From assembly GCF_021028975.2 (NCBI RefSeq), contig NC_059437.1, forward strand, positions 32,860,001 to 32,924,000: a stretch of 64,000 nt of DNA, given 5' to 3'. This stretch comes from Sphaerodactylus townsendi (taxonomy: Eukaryota). This document shows, piece by piece, positions 33,802 through 64,000 of the stretch. The notes below the pieces were generated by a model. It worked only from the letters and a program-made list of their open reading frames with translations. It did not search any database and was not told the origin of the DNA. The position numbers and the translations under genes are program-made. The first letter of the stretch is position 1, and every line of letters starts with the position of its first letter.

Positions 33802-34479
33802 ATACCTCTATTTAATCATTGTTTCGTTTTGTGTTTTTTTCATGCACTAACTGGTTATGGCAAAATTAGAACTAAACCTATGAGTGGGCTGAAATGTAGC
33901 ACTGAATTATTAATAAAGAATTATTAATGACAAGTACTTTACTGAAGTGGAAACATGGCTGGTAAATCTCCAGAGTAGCCTTGGGGAGAGTTTTTTCCAG
34001 TTTAAGTATATGAAACTGTTTTAAATAGAGTCAAACCACTGATCCTTCTAACTTAGTCTTCAGGTAGTGGTTTTTGTGGGAGAGCGATCTTTTGGAACTT
34101 TTGCTATTAGAAATCTTTTTGCTAGAGATCAAGTATGATCCTTCTGCAGGTGTTTGCCACACAGCCACAGCCCCTTCATAAATTTGATCTATACTTGAGT
34201 CAGCAGTTACACCCAGGGCCCAATTTGTCTGTGACCATCTTGGTAATCCCAAGCGTAATGAATAGACCCTCTTCAAGACTAGCTACAAAGTTTTGGGACT
34301 GTTTTGGGGAAACTGCTGACAGAAGTGGAAACCCCTATAATTATGCTCTTATTTATGTATTAAATTTGACTTATACCTTACCCTTTCCCTGTAAGACTGG
34401 GATCAAGGTGGCTTCCAGTATGATAGATTATGATGCATTACAACATAAATATAGAATTAAAACATATAATTTAAAACCA

Positions 34480-35150
34480 AAAAGCTCCCTGGTCCTGGTT
34501 GAGGGCAACCAGATGATTTTAGGCCCAGGGACCATCAATAAGTCATTCCCAGAAGAGTGTAATGCTCTTTGGGGGGGTATACCAAGAGGGGCAGTCCAAC
34601 AGATACGATGGTCTCAGGCTGTTGAGGGCTTTAGATGTACCAAAACATTGAATTTGATCCAGTATTCAATCTGGAGCCAGTGCAACTGGCAGAGCACAGG
34701 TTGCATATGTGCTCTTCATAGGGTTCACATAAGGACCCACACTGTTACCCTGGATGCAGTCTCAATATTGGGAAAATTAGCTCAGAGCAGACTGCTTATT
34801 AATAATGCAAGAGGCTGGGTAGGGAATCTTTAATACCAATGTATATAAAGATACCTGTGAATAAGCACTCTGTGAATAAGCACTCTATGCCAGGGCCGTA
34901 TGGTAACAACAACACCGCATTCTGGACCAGTTGCAGTTTCTGAAACAACTTCAAGGGCTGTCCTGCACAGAGTGTCTAACCTAGAAGTGACAGTTGCATA
35001 GATCCCTGGCCAGATTGGCATGAGGCACCTAGGGGAACAGCTGCTAGGCTTGGAGGAGGTGGGAAAAATGCCCTCCTAGCTGTGTGATCTGGGCCTCCAG
35101 TGAAAGGGTGGCATCCAAGATTATACCTAACTCTTGATCAAGGGAGCTGA
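34480..35150 (-). mobile_element. Degenerate L2-like LINE reverse-transcriptase fragment
   Basis: Frameshifted minus-strand peptides LGIILDATLSLEAQITQL and YATVTSRLD match the C-terminal region of L2-clade RT. Confidence 0.7.
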
Positions 35151-41700: not shown

Positions 41701-44700
41701 CGCCAGTTTTTCCTCTTCAGCATTTAATGTATCAACCGCAAACCCCCTATCTTCCCCACCTAATCTTTTGCCTACCTGCCTAACTTGGGGGAATTAGCAT
41801 CTTCTGCATTGCCCAGCATGCTGCTGGTGCTCAGGCTGTGTTCCGCTGCAAGCAGTATCTAGTCGGGAAGTTGAGTGGTTGTCCTTCTAGCCTCACTGTA
41901 CACAAGCAAGATACTTATTGATTATTCAAGTTAAGTCTCTAGGATTGGCCTTGAACACTCCTAGAGTCTTTGTGTATGAGATTTTAAAAGGTTTGCAGCT
42001 TTTATTGCTCCCTAGGGGGCATCTCCTTTGGCTTTCACAGGAGAAATGTAAGGGTTTGTCTTTTCCCAGCTTCCCTCTCACTTGACCTTTTTCTTCTAAA
42101 TTCTTGGCAACAAAAATGCACTTTAGGCTACTTGTTCCTGGGGGAACAACGTTGACCTGAGTTTGTCAGTTTTCAGGGAGAGACAGAGGCCTACATGAGG
42201 CAAATACTTGTGTGCCAGATACTCTAGCATGCAGTAAACCTAGAGTTCCACAACATACTTAAAATGGCGAAAGAACCCAGGGTGCCTGTTTGTTTGTATT
42301 TCAGTGACACACTCTCTTCGTGCCACTTCCAAAGAAGCATGCGAGGTGTTAGCCTGTCTTGTTCCTTGCAGGGTGCTGAAGGAGGTCTATGTGGCATTCA
42401 ACCCTGAAGCTGTGGTCCTGCAATTGGGAGCTGATACGATTGCTGGTGACCCCATGTGCTCATTTAACATGACCCCCGTGGGTGTTGGCCAGTGCTTGAA
42501 ATACGTGCTGCAATGGAAGCTGCCGACCCTCATCCTGGGAGGAGGTGAGTGGGGACAGAGTCTTCCAGGGCATTGTGAGTGATGAAGACACTGGGCACAG
42601 TGCAGTAGCATGTTCTCTGCAGCTGTGTTGTACAGCTCCCAGTCCTTTCAGTGGGACCTGCAGGAGAGAACTTCCTTTTGGATCGTGCCTCTTGTGGTCA
42701 CTTGCCTGGTTTCTGAGTGGGGGTGGTTTCAGGCAATTCTGCCTGAACAGGAGGCTGTCTTCAGAGATCAGCCCCAGGATATGCATGGCAGAGTGCCTTT
42801 CCTACTGTACAGCTAGCTGCTAGGCAGAAAGAAGGACTTTCAGATAAGAGATAAGTTTTTGGAGAGACCTGAGCCCTAAAAATAATTCATGTAGGTTTTT
42901 TTGCCATTAAACCATTAGCTAATGTTGTTTAAATGTCAGAACCAAGTTCTTGGGATCCCTGAGAACTACTAAATTACAGACCTTATTCTCTATTTGGTAG
43001 CTGTATGGCAGTCTCAGCCATTCTTTTTTGGTTGCCAAAGTGCTATCAAGTTCATTGCAATCATTGTGACTTCTTGGTACCTTTAGCGAACTTGCAAAAT
43101 CCAGGTGATACAAGTACAGTTGCTAGGCCTGCGTTTCTGGAACTGAAAATGAAAAACCTTATTTCCGTGGAGCGCAAATGCAAAGGAATGTTTCTGCTTA
43201 CCACGCATTCCCATCATGACTGCCTGTCTTTTCTTCTTCCTGAACTGACATTCCATTCTGGATACAGGAGGATACCATCTGGCTAACACAGCTCGCTGCT
43301 GGACATATTTGACTGCGGTCATTCTTGGGAGAACGTTATCCTCCGAGATCCCAGATCATGAGGTGAGGCTCTGATGTGCCTTCTCTTCCTCTGTTCACAA
43401 CAGCAGAGTCATTTCAGGTCCTGACCATTTAAGGCAGTCTTGTTGAAAAGCAATCTGATAACAATGGCACACTGTCTCAGCAGAAGCCGGCTGGCTGGTT
43501 CTTAAAAAAACAACAATCTTAGATAATCTGCGTCTTTTCCCACGAGTTCTCAAAAGCCAGTCAGGTTCCCTGGGCTTCCCTGTTTTCATTAAAAACTTTT
43601 TAGTATTAAAGACAAAAAACCAAATAAAAAACCCTGCCTTGATTTAGATCTGGGTCTTTGGGGGTAACTTAGAGATTGAGGGCATAAGTAGATATGACAT
43701 TGGGAGAGCTGTGAATAGATGTTGTGCAAGTTTTCAAATACTAAATAGTAGCAGGATCTGGACCCTAAATATGAACAGGAGAGAGGCTAATATCTAGTTT
43801 TCCTGCTATCAGTTGGCTCTCCAGAAGTGCTCTTCCCCTGAGTCAAATTTACAGGTTCTACACAGCTTGCCCACTGTCCCATTTACATCCTGCTTACTAG
43901 GATATTGGTATGCACTGAACATTGAACTGTCTGAGATAAATATGCTCAGGATACAATTCTGCATTTTCAGCTCAAACCTTTGCTCAGCTCAAACCTTTAG
44001 GGTAGGAAGGTGCAAAATATATTGTCAAGTCAAATTCTGTGAAATGCGAAAGCACCTAGAAGACCTAAATAAACTTTCAATCTTGCACCTTGCTCTCCTT
44101 TGTCTTTTCCTGCACATTGGTCTGGTTTTATTTTCTCATATTCAGATTCTGCTGAAATTCTGGGATGGTGTTCATATATTCATGGCACAGTGTTCCCTAT
44201 CGAGTTCTGACAGCAGCTTGACTTCTGCACCCATTTTCAAAGAGGGTGGGGGGTGGAAAGCTGTAAATAAAAAGTACTCATATACAATGCCCACAGGTGT
44301 CTCAGTTGTGCTTACCTAGCTGAGAAGTCTGAATTGGCAAACTTTTACTGAAAACACCCATTCAGGGGTCTGCAACCTGCGGCTCTCCAGATGTTCATGG
44401 ACTACAATTCCCATCAATTCCCATTGGCCATGGTGGCAGGGGCTGATGGGAATTGTAGTCCATGAACATCTGGAGAGCCGCAGGTTGCAGACCCTCAGTC
44501 AACCAGAGGTGCAAACAGGCTTACCCATGAGAAGGAGGCCAAGGGATCAAGGGCAGGGAGAAGAATACAGGGAGCATAAGGATTGGCTGCCCTCCCCCCA
44601 CATGGGGAGGTAAGCGGCCTTTTTGCCTTGACCAGCAGGGATGCAGCTGGGTTGGGGGAGGCAGGCAGACTGCTCAATTTCATTTGCTTTCCCCCAAGAT

Positions 44701-45960: not shown

Positions 45961-46373
45961 GCGGGGAAGGACAGCTCTTACCATTCCTCATGGGCCGGTC
46001 AGATTGAGAATGCTGCAGTTTTCTGCTGCTGGTGAACTTCAGAAGAAGATACTGCTACTCCATTGCTACTCCACTGCTATGACCATCGATGCTGTTATCA
46101 ACTTTTTAAAAGTAGTAGTAAATTCTTGTGAGGGGACTTGCTATGATGGTTTTTAAGGAAGGGAGGTAGCATTTCTGTGTGAGGCTTCGGTGGTCAGTTT
46201 TGTATCTTTTTATCTACTTTGTAGGGACCCCAGGTACAGCTTGCCTGTCAAATGGCAGGGGTCTGCTGTACCACTGGGGATGAGAGGGTGGGCCTTGGGC
46301 CTTCTGCCTCTTGGATTGGCTGCCTCCTCACCAGAGGGAGAGAAGTGTCTTTTAAAAACTGTTTGAATTTTAA

Positions 46374-46379
46374 AATAAA
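46374..46379 (+). terminator. HDAC8 polyadenylation signal (candidate)
   Basis: First AATAAA about 410 nt after the stop codon, followed by T/GT-rich sequence. Confidence 0.6.
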
Positions 46380-47397
46380 GTATTTGATATATTTGCTGCC
46401 TGGGTTTTTTTTGCATGGTCCTCCAGAGGTTCTTCTGATTGTCTGATTCCCCATACCACATTGGGCTGGGCACTATCCCCTTTTGCTTTTTTTCAGTGTA
46501 CAGTTTCTCAGTGTCCATAGCAACCCATGCATCACTACTAAATAATCTTTTTTATTGTATAGTATTGTGGGGAAATGGAGGGCACAAAGTTCTCACAGCA
46601 AGGATAGAGACACCCTGGGAACTTTGATTGAAGCTACCAGCCCCAGTTCCCTCCAGTCCATTTGAGACGTGATACCTTTTAAAGCTCTCAATGGCAGGAG
46701 CCCACATTCTCGAAGGGACCGTCTCTCACAATATGAATCTTTGCAGTGGCTTCAATCTTCCAGTAAACTCTCTTGTCTGTTTCCTTTGCTCAAGCAAGCA
46801 AAATCTGTTGCAGTTGAAGGTCTTTTGAACAGCTTGTATCAGGCCATTAGGAATGTTCCCATCCTTGTAGCCTTTAGGGAACTATGCAGGATGTCTTGAG
46901 AGGAGGACATTTGAAGATGAGGGGTGTGTGTGTGTGGGGGGTGTGTGTGTGGAGTGAAAATCCTCCTTCCTTGTTTCATCTCACATTTACTTTCACTTCT
47001 GCTAGTTTGTCCCTCCTTCTGCTGCCCGTTCTTTCATTTCAGCAGTCCTTTCCAACCAGACTGAGCCCCTAGAGGAGCCGTTATCATACAAAAGGATAAT
47101 AAAAATCTGCCTCTTGCAGAGAAACATTCATTTCAGTATATTAATTATCAGTGATTGCTTCCACTGTGGTCTCCTTCTCGTTATGGTATTCTGGGGATTG
47201 AATTTGTTCCAAGTGAGCTGTACCCAACACTCTCTAAGACATTGTAAACTGAAACACATCCTGTGAAACACCCATATTCATTTTAACTAAAATCCAGCTT
47301 GATGAACTGTTCAGGGGATTTAAAAGCTTGCTCGGTGTTCTGGGGTTGGTTGTAATAAAAACGTATCACACAATTGTAATTTTTTTTTTACTATTGA

Positions 47398-47526
47398 CTA
47401 AGCTACAATTGTTTGAATGGAAAGGGCTCTGGTATCAGTTGTCAGCCATATCAAACCCCATAAACGAGCAATGGGGTCATTACAACTGAAACCAGAGTCC
47501 TTTCCATTCAAACAATTGTAGGTTAG
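47398..47526. repeat. Inverted repeat (about 45-bp arms) upstream of the RPS4X promoter
   Basis: CTACAATTGTTTGAATGGAAAGGGCTCTGGTATCAGTTGT pairs with ACAACTGAAACCAGAGTCCTTTCCATTCAAACAATTGTAG. Confidence 0.8.
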
Positions 47527-47619
47527 CTCAGACTAGCCCAGACATGCAGACCAAAAAAACCAAAGATCTTGCAGAACATCCACTGTACGAAGTTACCTAT
47601 CAGTTACCAATGATCGTGA

Positions 47620-47818
47620 GAGGGTGCCGCGGATTGTCCCCAGGCGCTACCCGTACGCCGAAAAAGTTGCCATCCTGGAGTGGGCCGCTAGGTGACGCCG
47701 CTCACTGTCCCTCAGCCTTGGTCTTCGTGGTTCTTTCACGACCGCCGTAGGCCGGCTCTCGGGTCGGATATCCGCTCCGGAACGGAAGTGGCGGCCCTTT
47801 TCTCGGCAGAGCGCGGCC

Positions 47819-47830
<12 letters not shown>
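47620..47830 (+). promoter_or_regulatory. RPS4X promoter: TCT/5' TOP initiator, tandem ETS/GABP sites, CTCF-like site
   Basis: CCCTTTTCTC pyrimidine tract at 47795-47804 just before the ATG; CCGGAACGGAAGTG at 47777-47790; GCCGCTAGGTGACGC at 47684-47698; CpG-rich. Confidence 0.85.
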
Positions 47831-53339
<5,509 letters not shown>

Positions 53340-53391: not shown

Positions 53392-55423
53392 ACCTTTTCC
53401 AAACATTGCTTGGGATCTGTATTCTCTCTCCCACGACACTCTGGTCTTGATTTGAGGCAGAAACCCTCTCAAATGGTAAACTGCTTGATTTTTTGCTTGA
53501 TTTTCAGTTAGAAAAGAATGGTGTTTTGGTTGCTTAGAAAAACTGAATCCTCACTGCTATGGTAAGGCCAATCAAAGGCAGCTTCTTATGCTACTGAAAA
53601 TAATGTAGAAGTCAGTGTCATCAGCTGTATCTAAGATAGTGCCTACAAGTTTATATTTTGCAGATGATTGTATGTTCCTGGTTATGCTAAGACTAGGCCA
53701 TCAGTAGTATAACAGACCATTTTGCTTGGCAAATATAGCAGTGAAGGCAAGCTCCTTAAGCACTGGCAAATGCCCTTGGGCTTAGTGCTTCAAGGCAAGG
53801 TGGTGGGTGTGGTTTATTTTGTACCCCTGCCTTTCTCCCCACTGGAGCACAAAATCAGTTTACATTGTTCTCCCCTTCTCCATTTCATCCTCACAGTGTG
53901 GGATTTAAACTGGGTCTCTCAGATCATAGTCTGACATCTTAACTCCTTCAACTCACTGCCTATCATTACCTTTGTCCAGTTGTCACCTGGATCCAAGACT
54001 GTCTTCTTAGAAGCCTGTAACCCCAAAGAAGAGAGGGCTGCTATTTGAGAATGGCTGGAGGCGGGGTCAGTGTGGGCAGCCCCAGCAAGCCGGCTCATTA
54101 GAGATGGTCCTGCTGGTTCTCACTTCCCTTAGCAAGTGCTTTTGCTGTGGTTGTCAGAAAACTCTGAACAGCTGCATATTTTGAACAGATATTTATCTCT
54201 ACCTACACCTCATCCTTAACTTCATTGCTGGGAGGCTTTCACAGATGCAACCAGTTACCCAGCGATTAAAGCGTCCCTCTTTGTTTTATTAATGAAAGGA
54301 CTGAGACAGATTATGTGAAAAAGTTTCGCTTTGAGGCTTCACTCCTTTAGAAAAAGGCAGTGATCTAGGGGCATATAAGGTGCCAAAGGTATGCAAGTTA
54401 GGCAGAGGAATCAAGTTGATGGCTGGGAATCACCAGTTGGAATGCAGCAGTGTAACTGTTGGCTGCTCCCGACAGTCGCCTTGAGTAAATGATATACTGT
54501 AGAAATGGGAGACATGGGGTGGGTACTGGGGGGGGGGGTTTCCAAGAGGTCAACACCACTAAATTCTAGGCAACATATCTTGACAAACCACAATCTTTTC
54601 AGAGTAGGCTTTCAATACTTCTGTGATGTCATTGGGGGGGGCATCCTGTTTAGGGTCCAGTGTCTGTCATGTCTTTGGAGGGGGAGTGAGGTGATCCTAT
54701 CTCTACCTGAGAGTCATTGAGGGGATGAGGTTTGCTCCTGAAACAGTGGGCTGTGCAACTCTGGCCACAGCAGCAACCGGTGTTACCCCTTGTAACCAGC
54801 TGCAGCTTCTGACACATGATAGATTACCCATGTTGTGTGTGTGTGGAGGGGGGGGGGTCCAAACTGGTCTTCCTTCAGGTGCTTTCCAGAGTTGGAGCAG
54901 GTAACAAGTCTCCAGGTATGCAGAGGCCCATCAGTGCTCAGTAGCAGGTTGCAAGGCCTTTTAAGGCAAGCTGTTTTCCTTGTTTTAAAGCTGCTGTCCT
55001 CACCTGTAAAGAAAAACAGTTGAATTGAAGCAGTGTTCTTAATGGGACCCTGACTGCTTAGCGGGTGTGCTACAGGTGGAATAAGGGATGTTTTCAGAAA
55101 AGGCTAGGGAAGATGGACATGCAACTACTAGCTGCTCCTGGGGAGAAGAATAATAGAATGATTTGGGGTCTGAGTTGCTAGCTGTCTGATTGATCAGTGG
55201 CTGGAGTGGAAGAGTAATGGAGAATCCTCAAACAAAGGTTTTTTATTGTATTATTTTTTGTAGAGAGGAGTAGAGGTGATAGCAGTAGAGCCACTGATAC
55301 GGAGTAAGGATTTTCTTTAAAATAAAGATAACCCCCTCTTTGCCCAGTCCAGATCTAGAGTTCCTTACCCACCTTACCTGTGCACGCCTTCAGCTTGCCC
55401 AGAGGGAAGGAGGACTTGGCCTT

Positions 55424-57724
55424 CTACAGATTACACTGGGGGTGATTCTCAGCTTCTGAGTCTTCCTCAAAGTCCTCAGGATAACTGCTCAGCCCCCATT
55501 CATCCTCAGAGTCTGCAGGAACAATGAAACAGTTTGGCACCAATGAGAGCAGGGGAAGGAAGGGAGTTTTGTTAGATAGCTAGTAAGCTATCTTCTTCTC
55601 TGTGTAGGGGAAAGGAAATCAATTTTGCCAGATCGCAGTGTGGATCAATTTGCAGTGGGTATACCTATGCTATTACACCTGCCCTGCAAATAAATACCTG
55701 GAAGTGAAATTTCTCTGAGGTGTGGGGGGTGGGGTGGGGCTGCCTCTACTGAGTATTAAAGGGAGGGGAATCCTTCAGCCTGTTTACCTGTTTTAACAGC
55801 TGTCAACAAGAACCAAAACAGGGGACTTGAAATGACAGTGTTGTGACTGAGGAAGCATGGCTTCTGTCCCCCAGTTGCCTGGCCTGATCACATTGTCATT
55901 GGGAATGCCCAAAGGAGATGGGCAGGAGCCATATAGGTGGATCCAGAAGTGAAGTCCTAGGGAATTACAGTACTGGCGGGGACTTGCCACAACAGAATGA
56001 AAGCATGATTTAGCTTAGAAATTGTAGAACTGCAACTACATGACAGGCATTTTTATATGACATCAGGATTAGAGTGAAACAATCTTGAGGTTTTTGTTTT
56101 AAGATGCCAGTTGGCATTCGAAGGTAGAGTGGAATAATGATTAGAGCAGGGATGTCCAACTATGGTGCTTTAGATGTCCATGGACTACAATTCCCATCAG
56201 CTGCTGGCACGGCCAATTGGGACTGATGGCAATTGTAGTCCATGAACATCTGAAGAGCTGGATTAGATTATCATGCTAGGATAATAAAGAGGCCCAGATC
56301 TGAATCCCACACTTGCCATAACAGCTTATCAATGAGTGGCTAGTCACTCTGAGCCTAACCTGCCTTGCAGGATCGACTTATTGACAGAATAAAAGGGAGA
56401 AGGATATTGTACGCCACTTCGGGTCCCCATGGACAAGGAAAGGAGCAGGGGAATGTCTCGGCAGGAATCACTAATATTTGCAAGAAAGCATTTTGATTCT
56501 TGGTTATTTTGGTTCATCATGGAAGGCTTCAGGCCACGTTGGCTGCCCTGTACTTCTTTCAGTGTCCCCTGGTGCATTCCTTTGCTAAGCCTTGACCCAC
56601 TTACCAGTTTCAGAGGGTGTCTCTGTGGTCTCTGTAGCATCCTCATCAGAACTGCTGCTAAGTGAGGATGTGCTGGTGGTTTCAAAGTCTTCTGAGTAAT
56701 CAGAACTGCTAGGGATGCTAGAGACCTCATCTGGGTCCGTGTGTTTAGTGTGCTGCTGATAAGCACAACGTGGGATAGGTATTACCATTCGGTCCGTGTC
56801 GCCTTCGTAGCCCAGTGGGCCTGTCTGGTGCAGTCCAGGTGGGCTGAGCCCATGACCATCTCCATCATGTGATGCTTCCAGACGTGACTTGTTCAGGACG
56901 TGGATTTCTTGATGGAGAAGGAAGAGTCTGAGGTGGTCCTGAACATACTGGATGTTGAGGATGGCACCAGCACTGGGCCTGTCCTCTGGATCCTTTTGTA
57001 GGATAACTTGGACCAAACTATGCAGAGCTTCCGAGTAACACTCTGGAACAGGAGCATAATCCTCTTTCACGATTTTGTTAAACAAGCTGCCCAAACTGAG
57101 GCCACGAAAAGGGGGCTTCAGAGCACACAGCTCAAAGAGAACACAGCCCATTGCCCAAATGTCTGACTTGGAGCTGTAGGGCACATCCTCGCAGAGCTCA
57201 GGGCTCAAGTAATAAGGGGTGCCCACAAAGGTGCTTGCCAAGTCAATGGTGCTATCCATGACCTTCGAGATGCCAAAGTCCCCCAGTTTCAGCATCCCTG
57301 TCTTTGTGAGGAACACGTTTGATGCCTTGATGTCTCGATGCAGGATCTTCAAGGAGTGGATGTACTGGACAGCCATAACCAGCTGCACAAACCACTCCAA
57401 GATGGTGGGCTCAGGGAAGTAGCCCTCTGTCTTCATCTTGATGTGCTCGTCCAGGGAGCCATTGTCACAGTAATCTTGGACGATGAAGACATGATCCTGC
57501 TCCGCATCAAAGAAGTGGTCATGGCATGCCACCACATGGGGATGCCAGAGCGTGCTCAAGATGGCCACCTCTTGCAACACAGCTTCCTTGTTCTGCAGTC
57601 TCTTACTTGGGTGAATCTTGACCTTCTTCACAGCAAACAGTTGCTTTGTCCATGTGCTCCTCATGAGAAAAACCTCTGCACTTGCACCTTGGCCGATCTT
57701 GAGGATTTTCTCGTAGTTCTCCAT
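55424..57724 (-). CDS. NIMA-related (NEK family) Ser/Thr kinase, NEK12-like, about 402 aa
   Basis: Coding exon 57724-56605: acceptor tttctcctag|ggagaATGG with strong Kozak context, donor actg|gtaagt. It contains a complete kinase domain: [60 protein letters not shown] phase-compatible second coding exon 55512-55424 adds [32 protein letters not shown] family assignment is strong; the specific orthology is not verified. Confidence 0.88.
56147..56262. mobile_element. Diverged copy of the palindromic MITE (in NEK-like intron)
   Basis: CAGGGATGTCCAAC...GGACTACAATTCCCATCAG...AATTGTAGTCCATGAACATCTG. Confidence 0.7.
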
Positions 57725-59269
57725 TCTCCCTAGGAGAAACATCACACCAGGTGACCATGGTTAGGAGGCACCTCCACTGCCCCACTGCCTGTCTTTGTGT
57801 CATTGGCCTGGAGGAGGGGTGGAAGGAAGGAAGACAGGCAGGTCAGGAGGAGGGGCCTCCTGGAGGAAGAGCTTTTTTATGCCATCATTTTGACTTTGGC
57901 TTGGACCAGAGTGGGAGTAGCAAGGTTGGTGTCATTGGCTGAGGACAGAGGTCCTGGGTGAGAGCTTGCAGCTGAGCAACCAGGGTCAAGTACTACATCA
58001 TAGAAAAGACTATGACTCTGGGACCTTATGGGCCCTGGGCTGCTGTGCCAAGGTTGCTGCTATTGGGGTAGGAAAGTGATACAAGAGGCCTGCTTTGCAC
58101 CTCTGTTCTTTAGAGATGTGGTGTGACCCTTTCCAGCACATAAGATTACATGAACATGTGCTTGAGGCATCAGGGCAGCCATAATGATAAACAAGGGGAC
58201 TTTGGTTTGCTGCAGAAACACAATTTCAGGATCATCTTAGAATGTCACAAAGGACAGGCACGTTGTCCCACGGAGCCAAATTAAAGGGTTTCAGACACTA
58301 CTACTTAGTTGAAGGTGATTCTATACTGCATTCTCAGTTTCAAAAGGAAACTTACCGTGTTTTTTTTAACGAAGCAATAAAAATGACAGGACAAAAGCAG
58401 CTGCATATCTTGCACAAAAAGCTACAATCACAGATGGAAATCTGCAAGGCCACAGAACAAAATGAAGCTGTGATCAAAAGACTCCCATTTGCAGTCTCAA
58501 AACCTTGGGGTGGGAGCTGGGAAAGGAATGTGCTTCCCTGATACCTGATGCTCATCCACTGTCAAATCAACCTCATTTCCAACACTGAAATCACCCAAAA
58601 GACCTTTTGGAGATCTCCATGCACTTCTTTGGTTCTCACCATCCTGAATAATCCACATCTTCACTACTAACTCCATCTCACTCCCAGCAAAATAGGACTC
58701 GTCCTGATACTAATTTCTGGCTGAGCAGCCTCCATGGGTTACTCTGTTCAGGTGTGGCTCACTCTGGGGCAACGGGTATGCCAGCTTCCACCACTGGCAT
58801 TGCTGGCCATGTATGAGCAAAATGCGCCCGGCAGTACAGGACTTGTCCTCCGTGGCACTCCCCCTCATCAGACTTATTTTTATTCATTCAATGAGATAAA
58901 AACAACATAAAAAGCTAACAAATATAAAAATATTAACATTGCAATATGAAACTAATATGTAGCTTGCACCCCTAAAGGCCTGCCTATCCACCCCAGAGTA
59001 GGACGTCCTTCCTTCTATTTCCAGAGCTTTCCTTTTACTCTTGGCTTCTGTGCAGGAAGAAAGATGGGGTGCTAATGGTAAGGATCAGCATTCATTCTGT
59101 TTCCCAAGTAGTGAAAAGCTTCACCAGCCAAGCTGCTACCAAAGACGCAAGAGCAGGTCCAGCCAGTTAGTCTGATCAGTTGGCAACCCTGTCCTGCAAG
59201 CCGGAGTCACCCTGGGTTTCCATACCGTGCCTCCTGAACTGCAAAACCCAGCCTGGAGGAAGCTGACGC

Positions 59270-60020
59270 AGCAATTCCTTGGGCTCCGGAGCTGTTCATA
59301 AAGCGATGATGTGCGACCAAGCGGCGCGAGCAAAGGGGGCTGAGGAGCCAAGTCTGGCCGGGACCCCGGCAGGAAGCAGCTGCAGATGCCAGGAAGGCCT
59401 CTCTTTGGCCTTCACCTGCCTGCGCCTGCAGAAAAGCTGCAAAGCTTGGCTGGCCTTGGATGATATGTCATAGCGTCTCTATGGCAACACAGCCCAGCTC
59501 CCCGGCGTCACTTACTCCAAGGCTCTGCTGCGGCCAGGTAGAACGACGAGAGGTAGGAGGCGGGGGTGGTAGTGGAGCAGCCTCGGAGTGCTTCACTTTG
59601 CCGTTTGCACCACCCACGATTACGCTGTGTTTTTATTTTGCCCCTTCAGGGCTGGGCCTCCCCAACGGCCAGAGAAACACAGTGGGCCGCGGGACTCGTC
59701 TGCATTTGAATAGAAACCAGTTAATCTGCAGTGCGCGCCTCCACCCCGGAGCAGCGGGCTGGGCGGAAAAGCAGCCGAATGCGCCCTCTCCGACTGCCAC
59801 AAGGCGGCGCTGTTTCCCCACCGATGCGGGCCGGGACCAGAGAGGGCGGGGCTGCAGATGTTCCCCTGTGTTTTTTTCTATAGGCAGTAAAGGGTACATT
59901 GTGTTCGCCTGCGGTCCTGGGAAAGCAGCTGTGTTTCTGGGATCGCTCCCATCTGGCATGGGGAGCCCTGAAGGATGTCCCTCCAAGACGGAAGCGCCGT
60001 TTCCTGCTTCGATCGGCATC
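59270..60020 (-). promoter_or_regulatory. CpG island, putative promoter/non-coding first exon of the NEK-like gene, with RFX X-box
   Basis: CpG-rich block 1.5-2.3 kb upstream of the kinase ATG exon; minus-strand donor gga|gtaagt at 59516/59515; X-box GTCTCTATGGCAAC at 59475-59488; GC boxes. Confidence 0.65.
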
Positions 60021-60732
60021 TTCCTAAAAAATCTCCAGCCCAGGGTTGGAACAGATAACAGGGTGCAAAGAAAGGCACTAAGGAAGACTCTCACCTCACA
60101 GGTCTCCTTATTTTTCACAGCTGAGTGACAGGCAGAAAGTTACCAGGAACAGAATTCTGCACTGTTAAGCAAATTTTTGCATTTCTGCCTGCAGTGGCAG
60201 CCCTGGAAGCAAGAATAGGCCTGTTGGCTGTGGGAATACTTGGCAGGTGATGCCCATGTGTGTTGGGACTAGGTAGTAATCCAAACAGCGGGCATCATTG
60301 CTCTCATAGTCTTGCTTCTTCCAAGGAAGTGAAATTTGACCCCAGCTGCTCCTCAGGCAGGGCCTTGAAGATAACAGGTTTCTTCGGAACTAGACAGGGA
60401 GAAAGTTCACTCACCCCAAAGGAAAACAAATCACGGAAAATCTGTGTTGTCCCTGCCAAAGAAATGGTACAAGCTGTGGTGCTGTAGATCTTGCGAAAGA
60501 TACCTGGTGAGACTGTTTGATGTGTGTGCCATGAGATGAGGCATGCCATTTCTAGTGCATGCTTGAGCTAGGCAGCCTCCCACCAGCTGACCCCCAAAGA
60601 TCTAGCTGTTAAACAAGTTAAATGTGAGAAGCAAAAGGCTATGGCAGGGGGAATGGAAGCACTATCCTGGGGACATTCTACTTGCCCTAAAAGTCTTTTG
60701 CTACCAGCATACAGAAAGCCAAAACTTAAAAA

Positions 60733-61148
60733 CAGAGGTGTAGCTGGGCCAGAGTGTGCCCGGTGTGCACTCTGTTTTCTGCCCCTTTCTGCGGCGCCCC
60801 CCTCCCGCCACCCCCTCTCTTACCTTTGCTAAACAGTGCAGGCTGGAGAAGCAGCCTGTTCCCTTCAGGCTGAAAATGGCCTGGTGGGAACTATACTTCC
60901 CATGAGACCTTGCGAGCCCCAAGGTCTCATGGGAAATGTATTTCCCACCTGGCCATTTTCAGCCTGAAGGGAACAGGCTGCTTCTCCAGCCTGCACTGTT
61001 TAGCAAAGGTAAGTGGGGGAGGGACGCTGCAGGGGGGCACCATGGGGGGAGGGGCATGGAGGGGGGCCGTGAGGGCAATTTCCCACCCTTCCAGGTACGT
61101 GCCCGATGCAACGTGCACCCCCCGGTTCCCCTGGTAGCTACACGTCTG
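60733..61148. mobile_element. hAT-type non-autonomous element with an internal 94-bp inverted repeat
   Basis: TIRs CAGAGGTGTAGCT / AGCTACACGTCTG, degenerate 8-bp TSD (CTTAAAAA/CTCAAAAC); internal arms 60819-60912 and 60920-61013. Confidence 0.7.
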
Positions 61149-61809
61149 CTCAAAACCCAAACAAACCTCAGGATTCTGAATTTGAATGGGACCCTGTCTA
61201 CTTTGCCCGGCTGAGGTGAGATCCCGGGGGCAACCACTGCAGGGATCAGGCTACCAAATTTGAGATCTGTGGTCCAATATCTCTAAGGATATAATACTGA
61301 AGGATCTGGTCTACTTGTGTCTTCGTTGTGGACAGTTCTTTAAGAATTTATCCTGTGGGCTCCATGAGGCACAAGAAGTGGGGAACTTGATGATTGTGTA
61401 CTTCTGCACATTCTGGTGTTTCTGGTACTTGGCCTGCTTCCCTCCTAAGTTCCAGGGCCACTCTTGAACCTGGCAGGAAGGAGAGCAGGGTGTTTTCATG
61501 CACCAGTTGCCCTTTCACAAGACTTTGCACTTTTCAAAACAAGCTGGAGGAGGAGGAGGGGAACTCTGCTTTGGTGTTCTGCTTCTGTTGGCTCAGGAAA
61601 TCTGCATTTCAGTGTCACAGGCCACACAAACAGGAGTCCCAGCCAAGACAGGAGCTTTCATTCTTGATTACCTGTTTCCCACCTACTCACATGCCTAGGA
61701 AAGGTCCTCAAGAATCAAGTTGCAGCTTTCCTAGATTTACTCAAATCATCCTAACTGTGAGGGCTTGACCCTGAAGGAGAATTCCTCATGCACAGCTCTT
61801 TCCCTCCTT

Positions 61810-62067
61810 GAGAGCCAGGGTTGGATTCCCCACTCTGCCACTTGAGCTGTGGAAGCTTATCTGGTGAACTAGATGAGCTTGTGCACTCCCAACACATACC
61901 AGCTGGGTGACCTTGGGCTAGTCACAGTTCTTTAGAGCTCTCTCAGCCCCACCTACCTCACAGGGGGTTTGTTGTGAGGGGGAGAAGGGAAAGGAGTTTG
62001 TAAGTCCCTTTGAGTGTCCTTGCAGGAGAGAAAGGGGATGATATGAATCCAACTCTTACTTCTTCTC
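61810..62067 (+). mobile_element. Squamate tRNA-derived SINE
   Basis: B-box-like GGTTGGATTCCC, GGGTGACCTTGGGCTAGTCAC core, CTCAGCCCCACCTACCTCACAGG body and CTT-rich tail; a reverse copy at about 30400-30600 and fragments at about 36960-37160 and 56290-56440. Confidence 0.65.
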
Positions 62068-62294
62068 ATGAACAATTGTAGGTGTGGATAATGTTTGTGT
62101 GCCCCAGACGACTCAGAAGAAGGCAATCCCATCTCCAGCTTGTCAGAGCCTATAGTTCAGGGCAAAGGGTCTTGCTCTAGATGGCAACGTTTAGCTCAGT
62201 TGAACATTGCCAGGTGAGTGGTGAACCTGAGCAAAACACTAACTGCTACTCTGCATGAACCAAAGTCACAATTCCTGGGGGATGTGGAATGGCA

Positions 62295-62450
62295 GAGTAT
62301 AGCCCAATTTTGTCAGAACTCGGAAGCTAAGTCAGGTCAGCCTTGAAAGGGAGACTTCCCAGGAAGACTCTACAGAGGAAGGCAGTGCCAAACCACCTTT
62401 GCTTAATCACTTGCCTTGAAAGCCATTTGCTGGGGTCGCCATAAGTCTCT
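62295..62450 (+). mobile_element. 5S rRNA-derived SINE fragment
   Basis: Degenerate 5S-like head (gcccaatttt gtcagaactcggaagctaagtcagg); reverse fragments at about 9500-9640 and 17640-17750. Confidence 0.5.
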
Positions 62451-64000
62451 CTCACACACACGGAGGAGGGGAGAATGATGTTGTAAGCTGCTTTGTGTTG
62501 GAAGTGAAGGACTGTACACTATTTCCTGCCTCAACCACAGAGGGAGTTTTACCAGTAAGCCAGATGCTTGATACGGACATAGGGATTGATACCTTTGCTC
62601 TACCATGCTGGCACTATCCCTTTGAAGTTAGACTGATAGGGACTTCCTTCCTTCAGGCTCACTCCTCCTTGCTCCTCTCTTCCCTCACGTCTCCTGCACC
62701 AGGTGTGTAGAGAGGATGGATGCTGACTGACTGCATCCATCCCCATCCAGCTAGCTAGATCAGATTAGTGAACCTCGCTCTCTACCTTTCTATTTAGAAT
62801 GGAGTTCACTAATAAATACTCTTTTTAGTAGATTAGAAATTACAAATGACTCTGACTTTTCTTTGTGCCAATGCATGCACACACATGTTTGGGGATGCTT
62901 CGCTGTGCTTATGCCTCCATGCAATCTGCTTGTAATGCTAAAGTATAATCTCTCCAGGGAGATTATCCAACCCTTTAGATCCACATTTGGGAGACAAATA
63001 GGATATAAATATTTGAACAAGTGAAAATTATTTCCTGCAGAAACACCACCGGCAGTGAAATAAGTCCCTGCCATGCTTGTGTGTGGTGTGGTGCCCAAAT
63101 GTTAGTTGTTGGATGTTCTGGGGAGCCTCGAGTGCAGCCAGGTTGCATTTCTCAAACCATGACACAGCCAGGCTGAATGCATCCCAGCAATCCCTGCAAT
63201 GCTGTCCTTGTGACTCTCAGAGATTTCTCCTGGATCAGCAGGAATCTCTGGGAGTTGCAAGGATCTGCCCATGTGAACCGGCTCTAAGGAAATGCAATAT
63301 GGTGCCTGAGTTAACTTCAGCTGAAGCAAACGAAAGAGAAGATAGAGCGCAAAACAATATGACAGCAACGGAGAAAAATGTTCTCAATTTTGCATTGTTA
63401 TGTAAGCAGACCCCAGAGGCGGGGGAGATCGGAACACCCTGAAAATGTTGAGGCTTGTGGGCTCGGAGGCTGGAGCCAAAAGCCTTTGCGGCAGAAAGTT
63501 GGCTGCGCCTCATCACCGTGTTCCCTTTTCAACTTGCCCGGCTTTACATTACATAACAGGATCATATTATCCCACAAGATCACTGTCTTATTTCAGCAAC
63601 AGCAGCAAACAGAGTCTCCAACACAAGTTTGGCACAAGTCCTCTTTGTTATTTGTTTTGCCCTGTCTGAAGCGTTCTCCGCACAAGAGTGGGCTTGACTG
63701 GAAGGAATTTGGATTGATGGGGCAAAGTTTTTTCCACTTTGCCCTGTTTCTGTAATAGGCAGTCATGAAAATCCACAGACCCCATTTGCGTGCAAGTGCA
63801 GCGGACCATCAGAACCGAGAGGAGAGAGATGGGCTGGGCTATGGCAGCTCGCTCAGAGATGCTTTTGGACAAAGTTGGGTCTCTGCTTTTTCACCTATGC
63901 ATGTTTGAAGACCAGGAGTTAATATCAGGTTGTATTCAACAAGGCTGCCCTGGAACCATTTTGCTAATGCCCAGCCCCCAACCCTGCCATTTTAATTACG

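What the first reader, a model, noticed from the sequence alone, without database searches (positions are those of the whole stretch)
55424..57729. Intact NEK-family kinase gene, with a single-exon kinase domain, at a locus where humans have no NEK
Seen: an uninterrupted 373-codon exon encodes a full NIMA-type kinase domain with all catalytic residues (VAIK-like Lys, alphaC Glu, HRD, DFG, SPE), but an atypical glycine loop GQGASA (no aromatic residue, third Gly replaced by Ala). It lies tail-to-tail with RPS4X. Known: human NEK1-11 kinase domains are split over many exons, and no NEK lies next to human RPS4X (ERCC6L/PIN4 follow). Inference: this is a little-studied NEK paralogue, probably the lineage called nek12 in fish, of possible ancient retrogene origin and lost in mammals.
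Basis: partly seen in the sequence, partly recalled or inferred. Interest (0 to 1): 0.75.

Follow-up and report, generated by a model that had tools for sequence, protein, structure and literature searches.

The report
Gecko NEK12 kinase with decayed tail
This gecko gene belongs to nek12, a little-studied kinase lineage shared with sponges, fish and platypus but not found here in birds, crocodiles or placental and marsupial mammals; it likely works in building sperm tails, and in this gecko the kinase part is intact while the conserved end of the protein has decayed.

Summary
One 1,120-nt exon (57724-56605, minus) encodes a whole NEK kinase domain with all catalytic motifs and the loop GQGASA, tail-to-tail with RPS4X. 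The protein is already annotated, as 'Nek5-like' of the gecko Sphaerodactylus townsendi.

It is the orthologue of fish nek12. Its clade includes sponges, cnidarians and probably a choanoflagellate (98/94 support). A vertebrate origin from NEK1/5 is rejected (AU p=3e-81). Platypus and echidna keep the gene; no bird, crocodilian or therian copy appeared in the searches.

Two corrections. The gene is not fully intact: a premature TAG in exon 2 and a dead last exon (two deletions, two stops) remove about 60 conserved residues, while the kinase shows no excess change. The odd glycine loop is a family trait (0 of 170 aromatic), and the single exon is shared with frogs and fish.

Zebrafish nek12 marks round spermatids in two datasets, and the gecko's upstream CpG-rich region holds an X-box-like site. 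A role in flagellum or motile-cilium building is therefore likely but untested. No paper on vertebrate nek12 was found.

The parts
56605..57730 (-). Large coding exon (acceptor AG ends at 57731, ATG at 57724): whole kinase domain (res 4-260), a following helix to about res 285, and a disordered Ser/acidic linker
   Evidence: identical to RefSeq XP_048370373.1 over all 373 residues
55378..55511 (-). Second coding exon (phase 1) with the acidic YPEDFEE motif; it runs 46 nt past the premature stop to a GT donor at 55377
55424..55426 (-). Premature TAG; the codons after it still match other geckos (KAKSSFPLGKL)
   Evidence: tblastn of four gecko orthologues reads through it
54875..55003 (-). Decayed last coding exon (LETCYLL domain remnant). 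It is 129 nt against 137 nt expected from Eublepharis, with two frame changes (inferred 1-nt and 7-nt deletions), TAA at 54963-54961, TGA at 54933-54931 and the old stop at 54877-54875
55242..55247 (-). AATAAA in intron 2, a candidate new polyadenylation signal after the premature stop (others start at 54290 and 53818); use not shown
59100..60000 (.). CpG-rich region, likely promoter; donor-like sites at 59515 and 58355 (minus) suggest non-coding first exons (inferred)
   Evidence: GC 0.59-0.60; CpG o/e 0.46-0.74 against 0.12-0.32 around it
59475..59488 (+). X-box-like (RFX) site GTCTCTATGGCAAC, the only exact match in the window to GTHNYYATRRNAAC
   Evidence: 1 match; 0.28 expected; 20 of 100 shuffles reach 1; consensus as printed in bioRxiv 10.1101/2020.08.21.260547
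47819..53339 (+). RPS4(X), the tail-to-tail neighbour

Best explanation
This is the gecko orthologue of nek12, an old animal NEK lineage, encoding a likely active Ser/Thr kinase that likely acts while sperm flagella and motile cilia are built, and in this species it has lost the conserved C-terminal helical domain that would likely dock it to a partner. Shown: the orthology, the intact catalytic motifs, the tail lesions, and no excess change in the kinase. Inferred: (1) RFX-type transcription from the CpG-rich region in spermatids and ciliated cells; (2) an mRNA that escapes nonsense-mediated decay, because the new stop lies only 46 nt before the last junction or is followed by an intronic polyA signal; (3) activation by phosphorylation of T165, which aligns with NEK1 T162; (4) in full-length orthologues, a tail distantly related to the NEK1 domain that binds CFAP410. 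My odds: orthology 0.97, lesions real 0.85, active kinase 0.8, flagellar or ciliary role 0.6, tail homologous to the NEK1 CID 0.4.
For: Orthology: the ranked hits run from geckos, turtles, squamates and amphibians to monotremes and fishes named 'NIMA-related kinase 12' (354-693 bits). Human NEK1 scores 248, and on the kinase domain alone sponge proteins (306, 295) outscore it (243). The careful tree gives the nek12 clade 98/94 and rejects grouping vertebrate nek12 with vertebrate NEK1/5-named domains (AU p 3e-81). Deep members are named as Corticium, Oscarella, Xenia, Sanderia, lamprey and Microstomoeca. Kinase under constraint: 0 lesions in 373 codons, against 17-35 expected at the exon-3 rate of 2-4 lesions per 43 codons. 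None of 12 relative-rate tests against other geckos was significant (p 0.36-1.0). Expression of the zebrafish gene: round-spermatid marker, 53% vs 7% of cells (PMC12759076 Dataset EV3); early and middle round spermatid marker (PMC8961980); one of 614 genes up in rpgrip1l mutant trunks, where the Foxj1a motile-cilia programme is activated (PMC11466456). X-box-like site in the CpG-rich region. Tail versus NEK1 tail by hhalign: E 0.001, reversed control E 0.41.
Against: No expression, splicing or activity data exist here for the gecko gene. The zebrafish marker lists hold thousands of genes. nek12 occurs in only 1 of 5 supplementary files of PMC11466456, in differential-expression sheets, so no hit came from a Foxj1-target list. 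One X-box match per window arises in 20 of 100 shuffles, and its conservation was not tested. The tail homology has an HH probability of only 22%; the tail model is weak (pTM 0.32). The loop lacks the aromatic residue of NEK1 and NEK7, so activity is not assured. No vertebrate NEK4 or NEK11 was in the trees, so the sister group is open. If the tail were essential for targeting, its loss would be hard to square with an unchanged job.
Confidence: 0.6

Rival explanations
1. Same orthology, but the protein works outside cilia (post-meiotic cell-cycle or chromatin steps in spermatids), or mainly as a low-activity scaffold.
For: The glycine loop has no aromatic residue in any of 170 family members scored. 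Round-spermatid expression fits many processes. The kinase survives loss of the tail.
Against: All catalytic residues are invariant in 25 orthologues from Lingula to gecko. The zebrafish gene rises with the motile-cilia programme in a somatic tissue. An X-box-like site lies upstream.
Confidence: 0.17
2. The gecko gene is dying: the tail lesions are the first stage of pseudogenisation and the kinase exon is open only because too little time has passed.
For: Five lesions in the 3' coding part. The tail is also eroded in other squamates and in monotremes. No bird, crocodilian or therian copy was listed. The gecko's end branch is somewhat longer than Eublepharis's (0.081 vs 0.057).
Against: Four lesions in 43 codons against none in 373 (P about 3e-8 even if only 2 are counted). 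Relative-rate tests show no acceleration. There are 3 departures at highly conserved columns, against 1-3 in five other squamates.
Confidence: 0.15
3. The tail lesions are assembly errors or a rare allele, and the species normally has a full-length nek12.
For: Only one assembly sequence was examined; the lesions were not checked against reads.
Against: Three nonsense changes and two deletions cluster in about 550 nt, while the neighbouring 1,120-nt exon has none. The dead exon also carries many missense changes, 61-71% identity to other geckos. Both RefSeq isoforms end at the same stop, though they come from the same assembly.
Confidence: 0.07
4. A recent retrocopy of NEK1, NEK3 or NEK5.
For: Intronless kinase domain; NEK1 is the closest solved structure by sequence; RefSeq names it 'Nek5-like'.
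Against: AU p 3e-81 against that grouping; orthologues reach sponges; the same exon boundary appears in frogs and fishes; about 43% identity to NEK1 against 46-83% to nek12 members.
Confidence: 0.01

Closest known systems
Zebrafish nek12 (zgc:113355, ENSDARG00000037174) and RefSeq fish 'NIMA-related kinase 12'
   Same: Same clade; same small-residue glycine loop, single large kinase exon with the same phase-1 boundary, and two acidic YxxDFE motifs.
   Different: The gecko protein ends at 402 aa and lacks the helical LETCY domain that fish, amphibians and turtles keep. No paper on its function was found.
Human NEK1
   Same: Best human and best solved match (43%, 248 bits). T165 aligns with NEK1 T162. 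The acidic region is followed by a helical tail with weak profile similarity to the NEK1 C21ORF2/CFAP410-interaction domain (PMC10185812 passages).
   Different: Separate clade and about a third of the length. Loop GQGASA against GEGSFG; Cys67 where NEK1 has Tyr66; Gln83 where NEK1 has the Met80 gatekeeper.
NEK7 / NEK2 'Tyr-down' autoinhibited kinases
   Same: NIMA-type catalytic domain (E 1e-51 and 1e-46).
   Different: The beta-4 tyrosine (NEK7 Tyr97; PMC5511132 passages) is Cys in 97 and Trp in 15 of the 120 best relatives and Tyr in only 4, so this switch likely does not operate in vertebrate nek12.

Membership tests
NEK (NIMA-related kinase) family | N-terminal kinase domain whose best matches are NEKs (criterion in PMC2031824) | tested here: met
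   The top 16 PDB sequence hits are NEK1, NEK7 and NEK2, ahead of PLK and STE20 kinases
NEK (NIMA-related kinase) family | Catalytic Lys, alphaC Glu, HRD, DFG, activation-loop Thr, xPE | tested here: met
   K33, E52, HRD129-131, DFG149-151, T165, SPE174-176; invariant in 25 orthologues
NEK (NIMA-related kinase) family | Ser/Thr kinase activity | not testable with these tools
   Sequence only
nek12 subfamily | Groups with proteins named NIMA-related kinase 12, roughly following the species tree | tested here: met
   Jawed-vertebrate clade 100/99, whole clade 98/94
nek12 subfamily | Small-residue glycine loop without an aromatic residue | tested here: met
   0 of 170 loops aromatic; 170 of 183 stored records matched the pattern
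nek12 subfamily | C-terminal helical LETCY domain in the protein | tested here: not met
   Present only as a dead exon. This shows descent from the family but makes the gecko protein a tail-less form
nek12 subfamily | Conserved synteny with fish nek12 | not tested
   No other vertebrate genome was available; only zebrafish chr14 is known
NEK1/3/5 clade | Monophyly with vertebrate NEK1 and NEK5-named kinase domains | tested here: not met
   AU p 3e-81. A NEK3 is represented only if one domain of the Sigmodon fusion model is NEK3, which is inferred
NEK4 or NEK11 orthologue | Monophyly with vertebrate NEK4 or NEK11 | not tested
   No verified vertebrate NEK4 or NEK11 sequence was retrieved. Indirect evidence against 1:1 orthology: no therian protein outscored invertebrate nek12
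NEK1 CFAP410-interaction domain (CID) | Helical C-terminal domain after an acidic stretch, homologous in sequence or fold | tested here: inconclusive
   hhalign E 0.001, probability 22%, reversed control E 0.41; low-confidence four-to-five-helix model
NEK1 CFAP410-interaction domain (CID) | Binding to CFAP410 | not tested
   No CFAP410 sequence was in hand
Recent retrogene | Nests inside a parent gene's clade, lineage-restricted, wholly intronless | tested here: not met
   Own deep clade; two 3' introns and a shared exon boundary in frogs and fishes

The most novel reading that the evidence does not exclude
nek12 is a twelfth NEK subfamily older than animals (choanoflagellate to platypus), a flagellum-building kinase with a NEK1-CID-like docking tail. 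It has been dismantled tail-first in amniotes: eroded in squamates and monotremes, fully shed in this gecko while the kinase stays under selection, and lost outright and independently in therian mammals and in birds plus crocodilians. It would be a natural experiment on what NEK tails do and on how amniote sperm came to do without an ancient flagellar kinase.
Probability: 0.4. Interest if true: 0.62.

Novelty: new member of a known kind. Interest (0 to 1): 0.45.

Why it matters
NEK biology is written around the 11 human genes. This is a named but apparently unstudied lineage, misnamed Nek1/3/4/5/6-like in tetrapod and invertebrate annotations. It can be knocked out in zebrafish or Xenopus, where it is intact. 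If it builds flagella, its loss in therians and archosaurs bears on how amniote sperm and motile cilia changed. The gecko allele shows that the kinase can stay constrained without its conserved tail. It remains an ordinary kinase fold in a known family, so it is a gap in the inventory rather than a new mechanism.

Tried and rejected
Sequencing runs: no RNA holder was listed for the kinase exon. Four holders of unknown kind come from one study and may include the assembled sample, so they are not used as evidence. No read-level view of expression, splicing or the lesions was obtained.

Genome: none is held for this window, so flanks beyond 64 kb, ERCC6L/PIN4 synteny and dN/dS could not be computed.

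Tail domain: no usable ESM Atlas hit; no Pfam family outside the kinase in 7 orthologues; only weak PDB sequence hits, best PlcR at E 0.013, taken as chance; no Foldseek match at E<=0.001; VIA best Z 3.0. None of this shows a new fold.

Literature: 'nek12'+'NIMA' gave 3 papers and 'nek12' gave 10, none by title or abstract about a vertebrate nek12. 'NIMA-related kinase 12' gave 0, the gene-loss search 0, and '113355'+'zgc' only unrelated papers. PMC10810531 supplements hold no nek12. Zebrafish neighbour coordinates were not found.

Earlier scan notes: nothing on this gene.

The X-box pattern was written after seeing the site, so one search is the fairer test. No complex prediction was run, because no partner sequence was in hand.

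Rejected: recent retrocopy; glycine loop as a sign of decay; ERCC6L inside the window (no Pfam hit in the 6 ORFs tested between 58191 and 63755; nothing recognisable by eye).
Full report
OBSERVATION. On the minus strand an acceptor ends at 57731, ATG is at 57724 and a GT donor starts at 56604, giving a 1,120-nt coding exon. It encodes a full kinase domain (Pfam Pkinase res 4-260, E 2e-64) with K33, E52, HRD, K133, N136, DFG, T165 and SPE. AlphaFold models the two lobes confidently apart from the activation segment (res 152-182) and res 207-213; residues 287-402 are low-confidence and likely disordered. Exon 2 starts at 55511 and stops at 55426-55424. The neighbours on the plus strand are a phosphorylase-kinase regulatory subunit (Pfam KPBB_C; PHKA1 by inferred synteny), HDAC8 and RPS4 (stop 53337-53339). 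The human order PHKA1-HDAC8-CITED1-RPS4X-ERCC6L-PIN4 and human NEK exon counts are recalled, not tested.

IDENTITY. The exon product is 100% identical to XP_048370373.1, 'Nek5-like', of Sphaerodactylus townsendi. The best 120 of 3,785 hits are geckos, other squamates, turtles, amphibians, lungfish, coelacanth, echidna, platypus, cartilaginous and bony fishes (many named 'NIMA-related kinase 12'), Lingula, Branchiostoma and unnamed records. Human NEK1 scores only 248 bits. The scan of 50% representatives added deeper members. I looked up 20 of its 150 rows; the named ones include Corticium, Oscarella, Xenia, Sanderia, Lineus, Liolophura, Babylonia, lamprey and Microstomoeca roanoka (a choanoflagellate, recalled), and several stayed unnamed.

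PHYLOGENY. Quick trees of 95 and 74 selected kinase domains and a careful mixture-model tree of 31 all give one nek12 clade apart from NEK1 and the NEK5-named domains (98/94; jawed vertebrates 100/99). Forcing vertebrate nek12 together with vertebrate NEK1/5 is rejected (p-AU 3e-81). The choanoflagellate is a long branch, so its place is less sure, but it also has a weak tail match (iE 5e-4). No verified vertebrate NEK4 or NEK11 was in the trees, and the outgroup was not monophyletic, so the sister group is unresolved.

DISTRIBUTION. No bird, crocodilian, marsupial or placental protein appears among the 120 rows or the 108 rows of the tail search. None of the 32 unnamed proteins placed falls where such a copy would; within amniotes they group only with gecko and platypus. 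This is not proof of loss. One search was cut at 354 bits, one search is word-based and missed monotremes and most squamates, and a fast-evolving copy could hide in a 50% cluster.

FAMILY TRAITS. Of 183 stored records, 170 matched a glycine-loop pattern and none has an aromatic residue at the loop tip. NEK1 and NEK7 do. The loop is therefore a subfamily signature, not decay. The beta-4 position equal to NEK7 Tyr97 and NEK1 Tyr66 (PMC5511132 passages) is Cys in 97, Trp in 15, Tyr in 4, Phe in 1 and unscored in 3 of 120. The gatekeeper position is Gln83.

SINGLE EXON. Among 22 records printed, ten are short (378-430 aa) products. All ten run through the kinase and acidic linker and then read 'GK' into unrelated sequence, as the gecko ORF does at its G|GTAAG donor. 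They group with gecko (1), frogs (2) and ray-finned fishes (7). The single exon and its phase-1 boundary therefore likely date to the bony-vertebrate ancestor (inferred from ORF calls, not from genomic alignment). Five full-length vertebrate proteins on 1.9-2.6 kb Logan contigs are likely spliced transcripts.

Other geckos continue about 60 residues further. Here the TAG sits inside exon 2, with conserved codons after it and a donor 46 nt further on. The last exon survives at 55003-54875 but is 129 nt instead of 137, changes frame twice and has stops at 54963-54961 and 54933-54931. At 2-4 lesions per 43 codons, a neutral 373-codon exon would carry 17-35; it has none. None of 12 relative-rate tests was significant. 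The tail is decaying while the kinase is kept. A stop within about 50 nt of the last junction usually escapes nonsense-mediated decay (established rule, recalled), and an AATAAA lies in intron 2, so a stable mRNA is plausible. The lesions rest on one assembly and were not checked against reads. A tail profile (built from 23 fish, amphibian, turtle and invertebrate tails) scores Pelodiscus, which was not in the training set, at 117 bits. Monotremes score about 30 and have lost the last helix, geckos score 17-29 on the last helix only, and other squamates under 17. Salmonids also end early. Tail erosion has thus recurred.

THE TAIL. The intact tail is predicted as four to five helices with low confidence (pLDDT 69, pTM 0.32). 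Profile comparison of 36 nek12 tails with 16 NEK1-type tails gives E 0.001 and probability 22% over 56 columns; the reversed control gives E 0.41. In NEK1 this region binds C21ORF2/CFAP410 and is needed for ciliogenesis (PMC10185812 passages). Homology is suggestive and binding is untested.

FUNCTION. Zebrafish nek12 (zgc:113355, chr14) is a round-spermatid marker in PMC12759076 (Dataset EV3, 53% vs 7%; also in the chromatin gene-activity list EV7). It is also a marker of early and middle round spermatids in PMC8961980, where cilium terms are enriched in spermatids. It is modestly up (log2FC 0.79, p-adj 0.018) among 614 genes in rpgrip1l mutant trunks, alongside nek10, where the Foxj1a programme is activated (PMC11466456); its hits were only in the differential-expression file. 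In the gecko, a CpG-rich region at 59100-60000 holds the window's only exact match to the X-box consensus. One match per window is not rare (20 of 100 shuffles); it is its position in this 0.9-kb region that is suggestive. NEKs as a family are tied to cilia (PMC2031824). Best mechanism: an RFX-driven kinase of flagellum and motile-cilium assembly, activated on T165, likely without the Tyr-down switch, docked through its tail in most species and working without it here.

WHAT I SAW OF EACH PAPER. PMC2031824: part 1 of 4. PMC8961980: part 2 of 4, passages, supplement rows. PMC12759076: passages and supplement rows (file 6 not searched; file 4 cut when stored). PMC11466456: passages and supplement rows. 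PMC10185812, PMC5511132, PMC12419110 and bioRxiv 10.1101/2020.08.21.260547: passages. PMC10810531: supplement search only. All others: search listings. No paper on vertebrate nek12 was found. Subscription papers, bioRxiv supplements and unsearched supplements may hold more.

VERDICT. Real, already annotated under a wrong name, and an orthologue of a named but apparently unstudied gene. New here: its depth (sponges, probably choanoflagellates), its patchy amniote survival, the spermatid link pulled from supplements, and a tail-less allele with a constrained kinase. Novelty: new member of a known kind; interest 0.45.

Noticed in passing
window 45962-47800: No room for CITED1, which I recall lies between HDAC8 and RPS4X in human: the gap is 1.8 kb and its longest stop-free frame is 113 codons. 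Possible loss or relocation in this gecko.
   Followed up: partly
window 60806-61026: Long inverted repeat, 107-nt arms, 92% complementary, 7-nt spacer; likely a small DNA-transposon-like element.
   Followed up: no
window 56168-56255 and about 44380-44490: Short hairpin repeat (33-nt arms at 56168-56255) in nek12 intron 1; a similar element is seen by eye in HDAC8.
   Followed up: no
window 59300-64000: No recognisable ERCC6L or PIN4 exon within 6 kb upstream of the nek12 start codon; the next gene may lie beyond the window.
   Followed up: partly
P0200, P0201 (Ostrea, Saccostrea): Oyster nek12 models are fused to a calpain (1,145 and 1,144 aa) in two genera and lack the last tail helix; a real fusion or a shared annotation read-through.
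   Followed up: no
PMC12759076 Dataset EV7: Zebrafish nek12 and pin4 both show round-spermatid chromatin activity with similar fold change, although pin4 RNA marks spermatogonia. This could mean they are neighbours sharing open chromatin, a weak synteny hint.
   Followed up: no
P0094, P0096-P0100, P0103 (salmonids): Salmonid nek12 models end before the LETCY helix, another apparent tail truncation.
   Followed up: no
window 34126-34833: 235-codon stop-free frame between the phosphorylase-kinase gene and HDAC8 with no Pfam match; possibly a retroelement fragment.
   Followed up: partly
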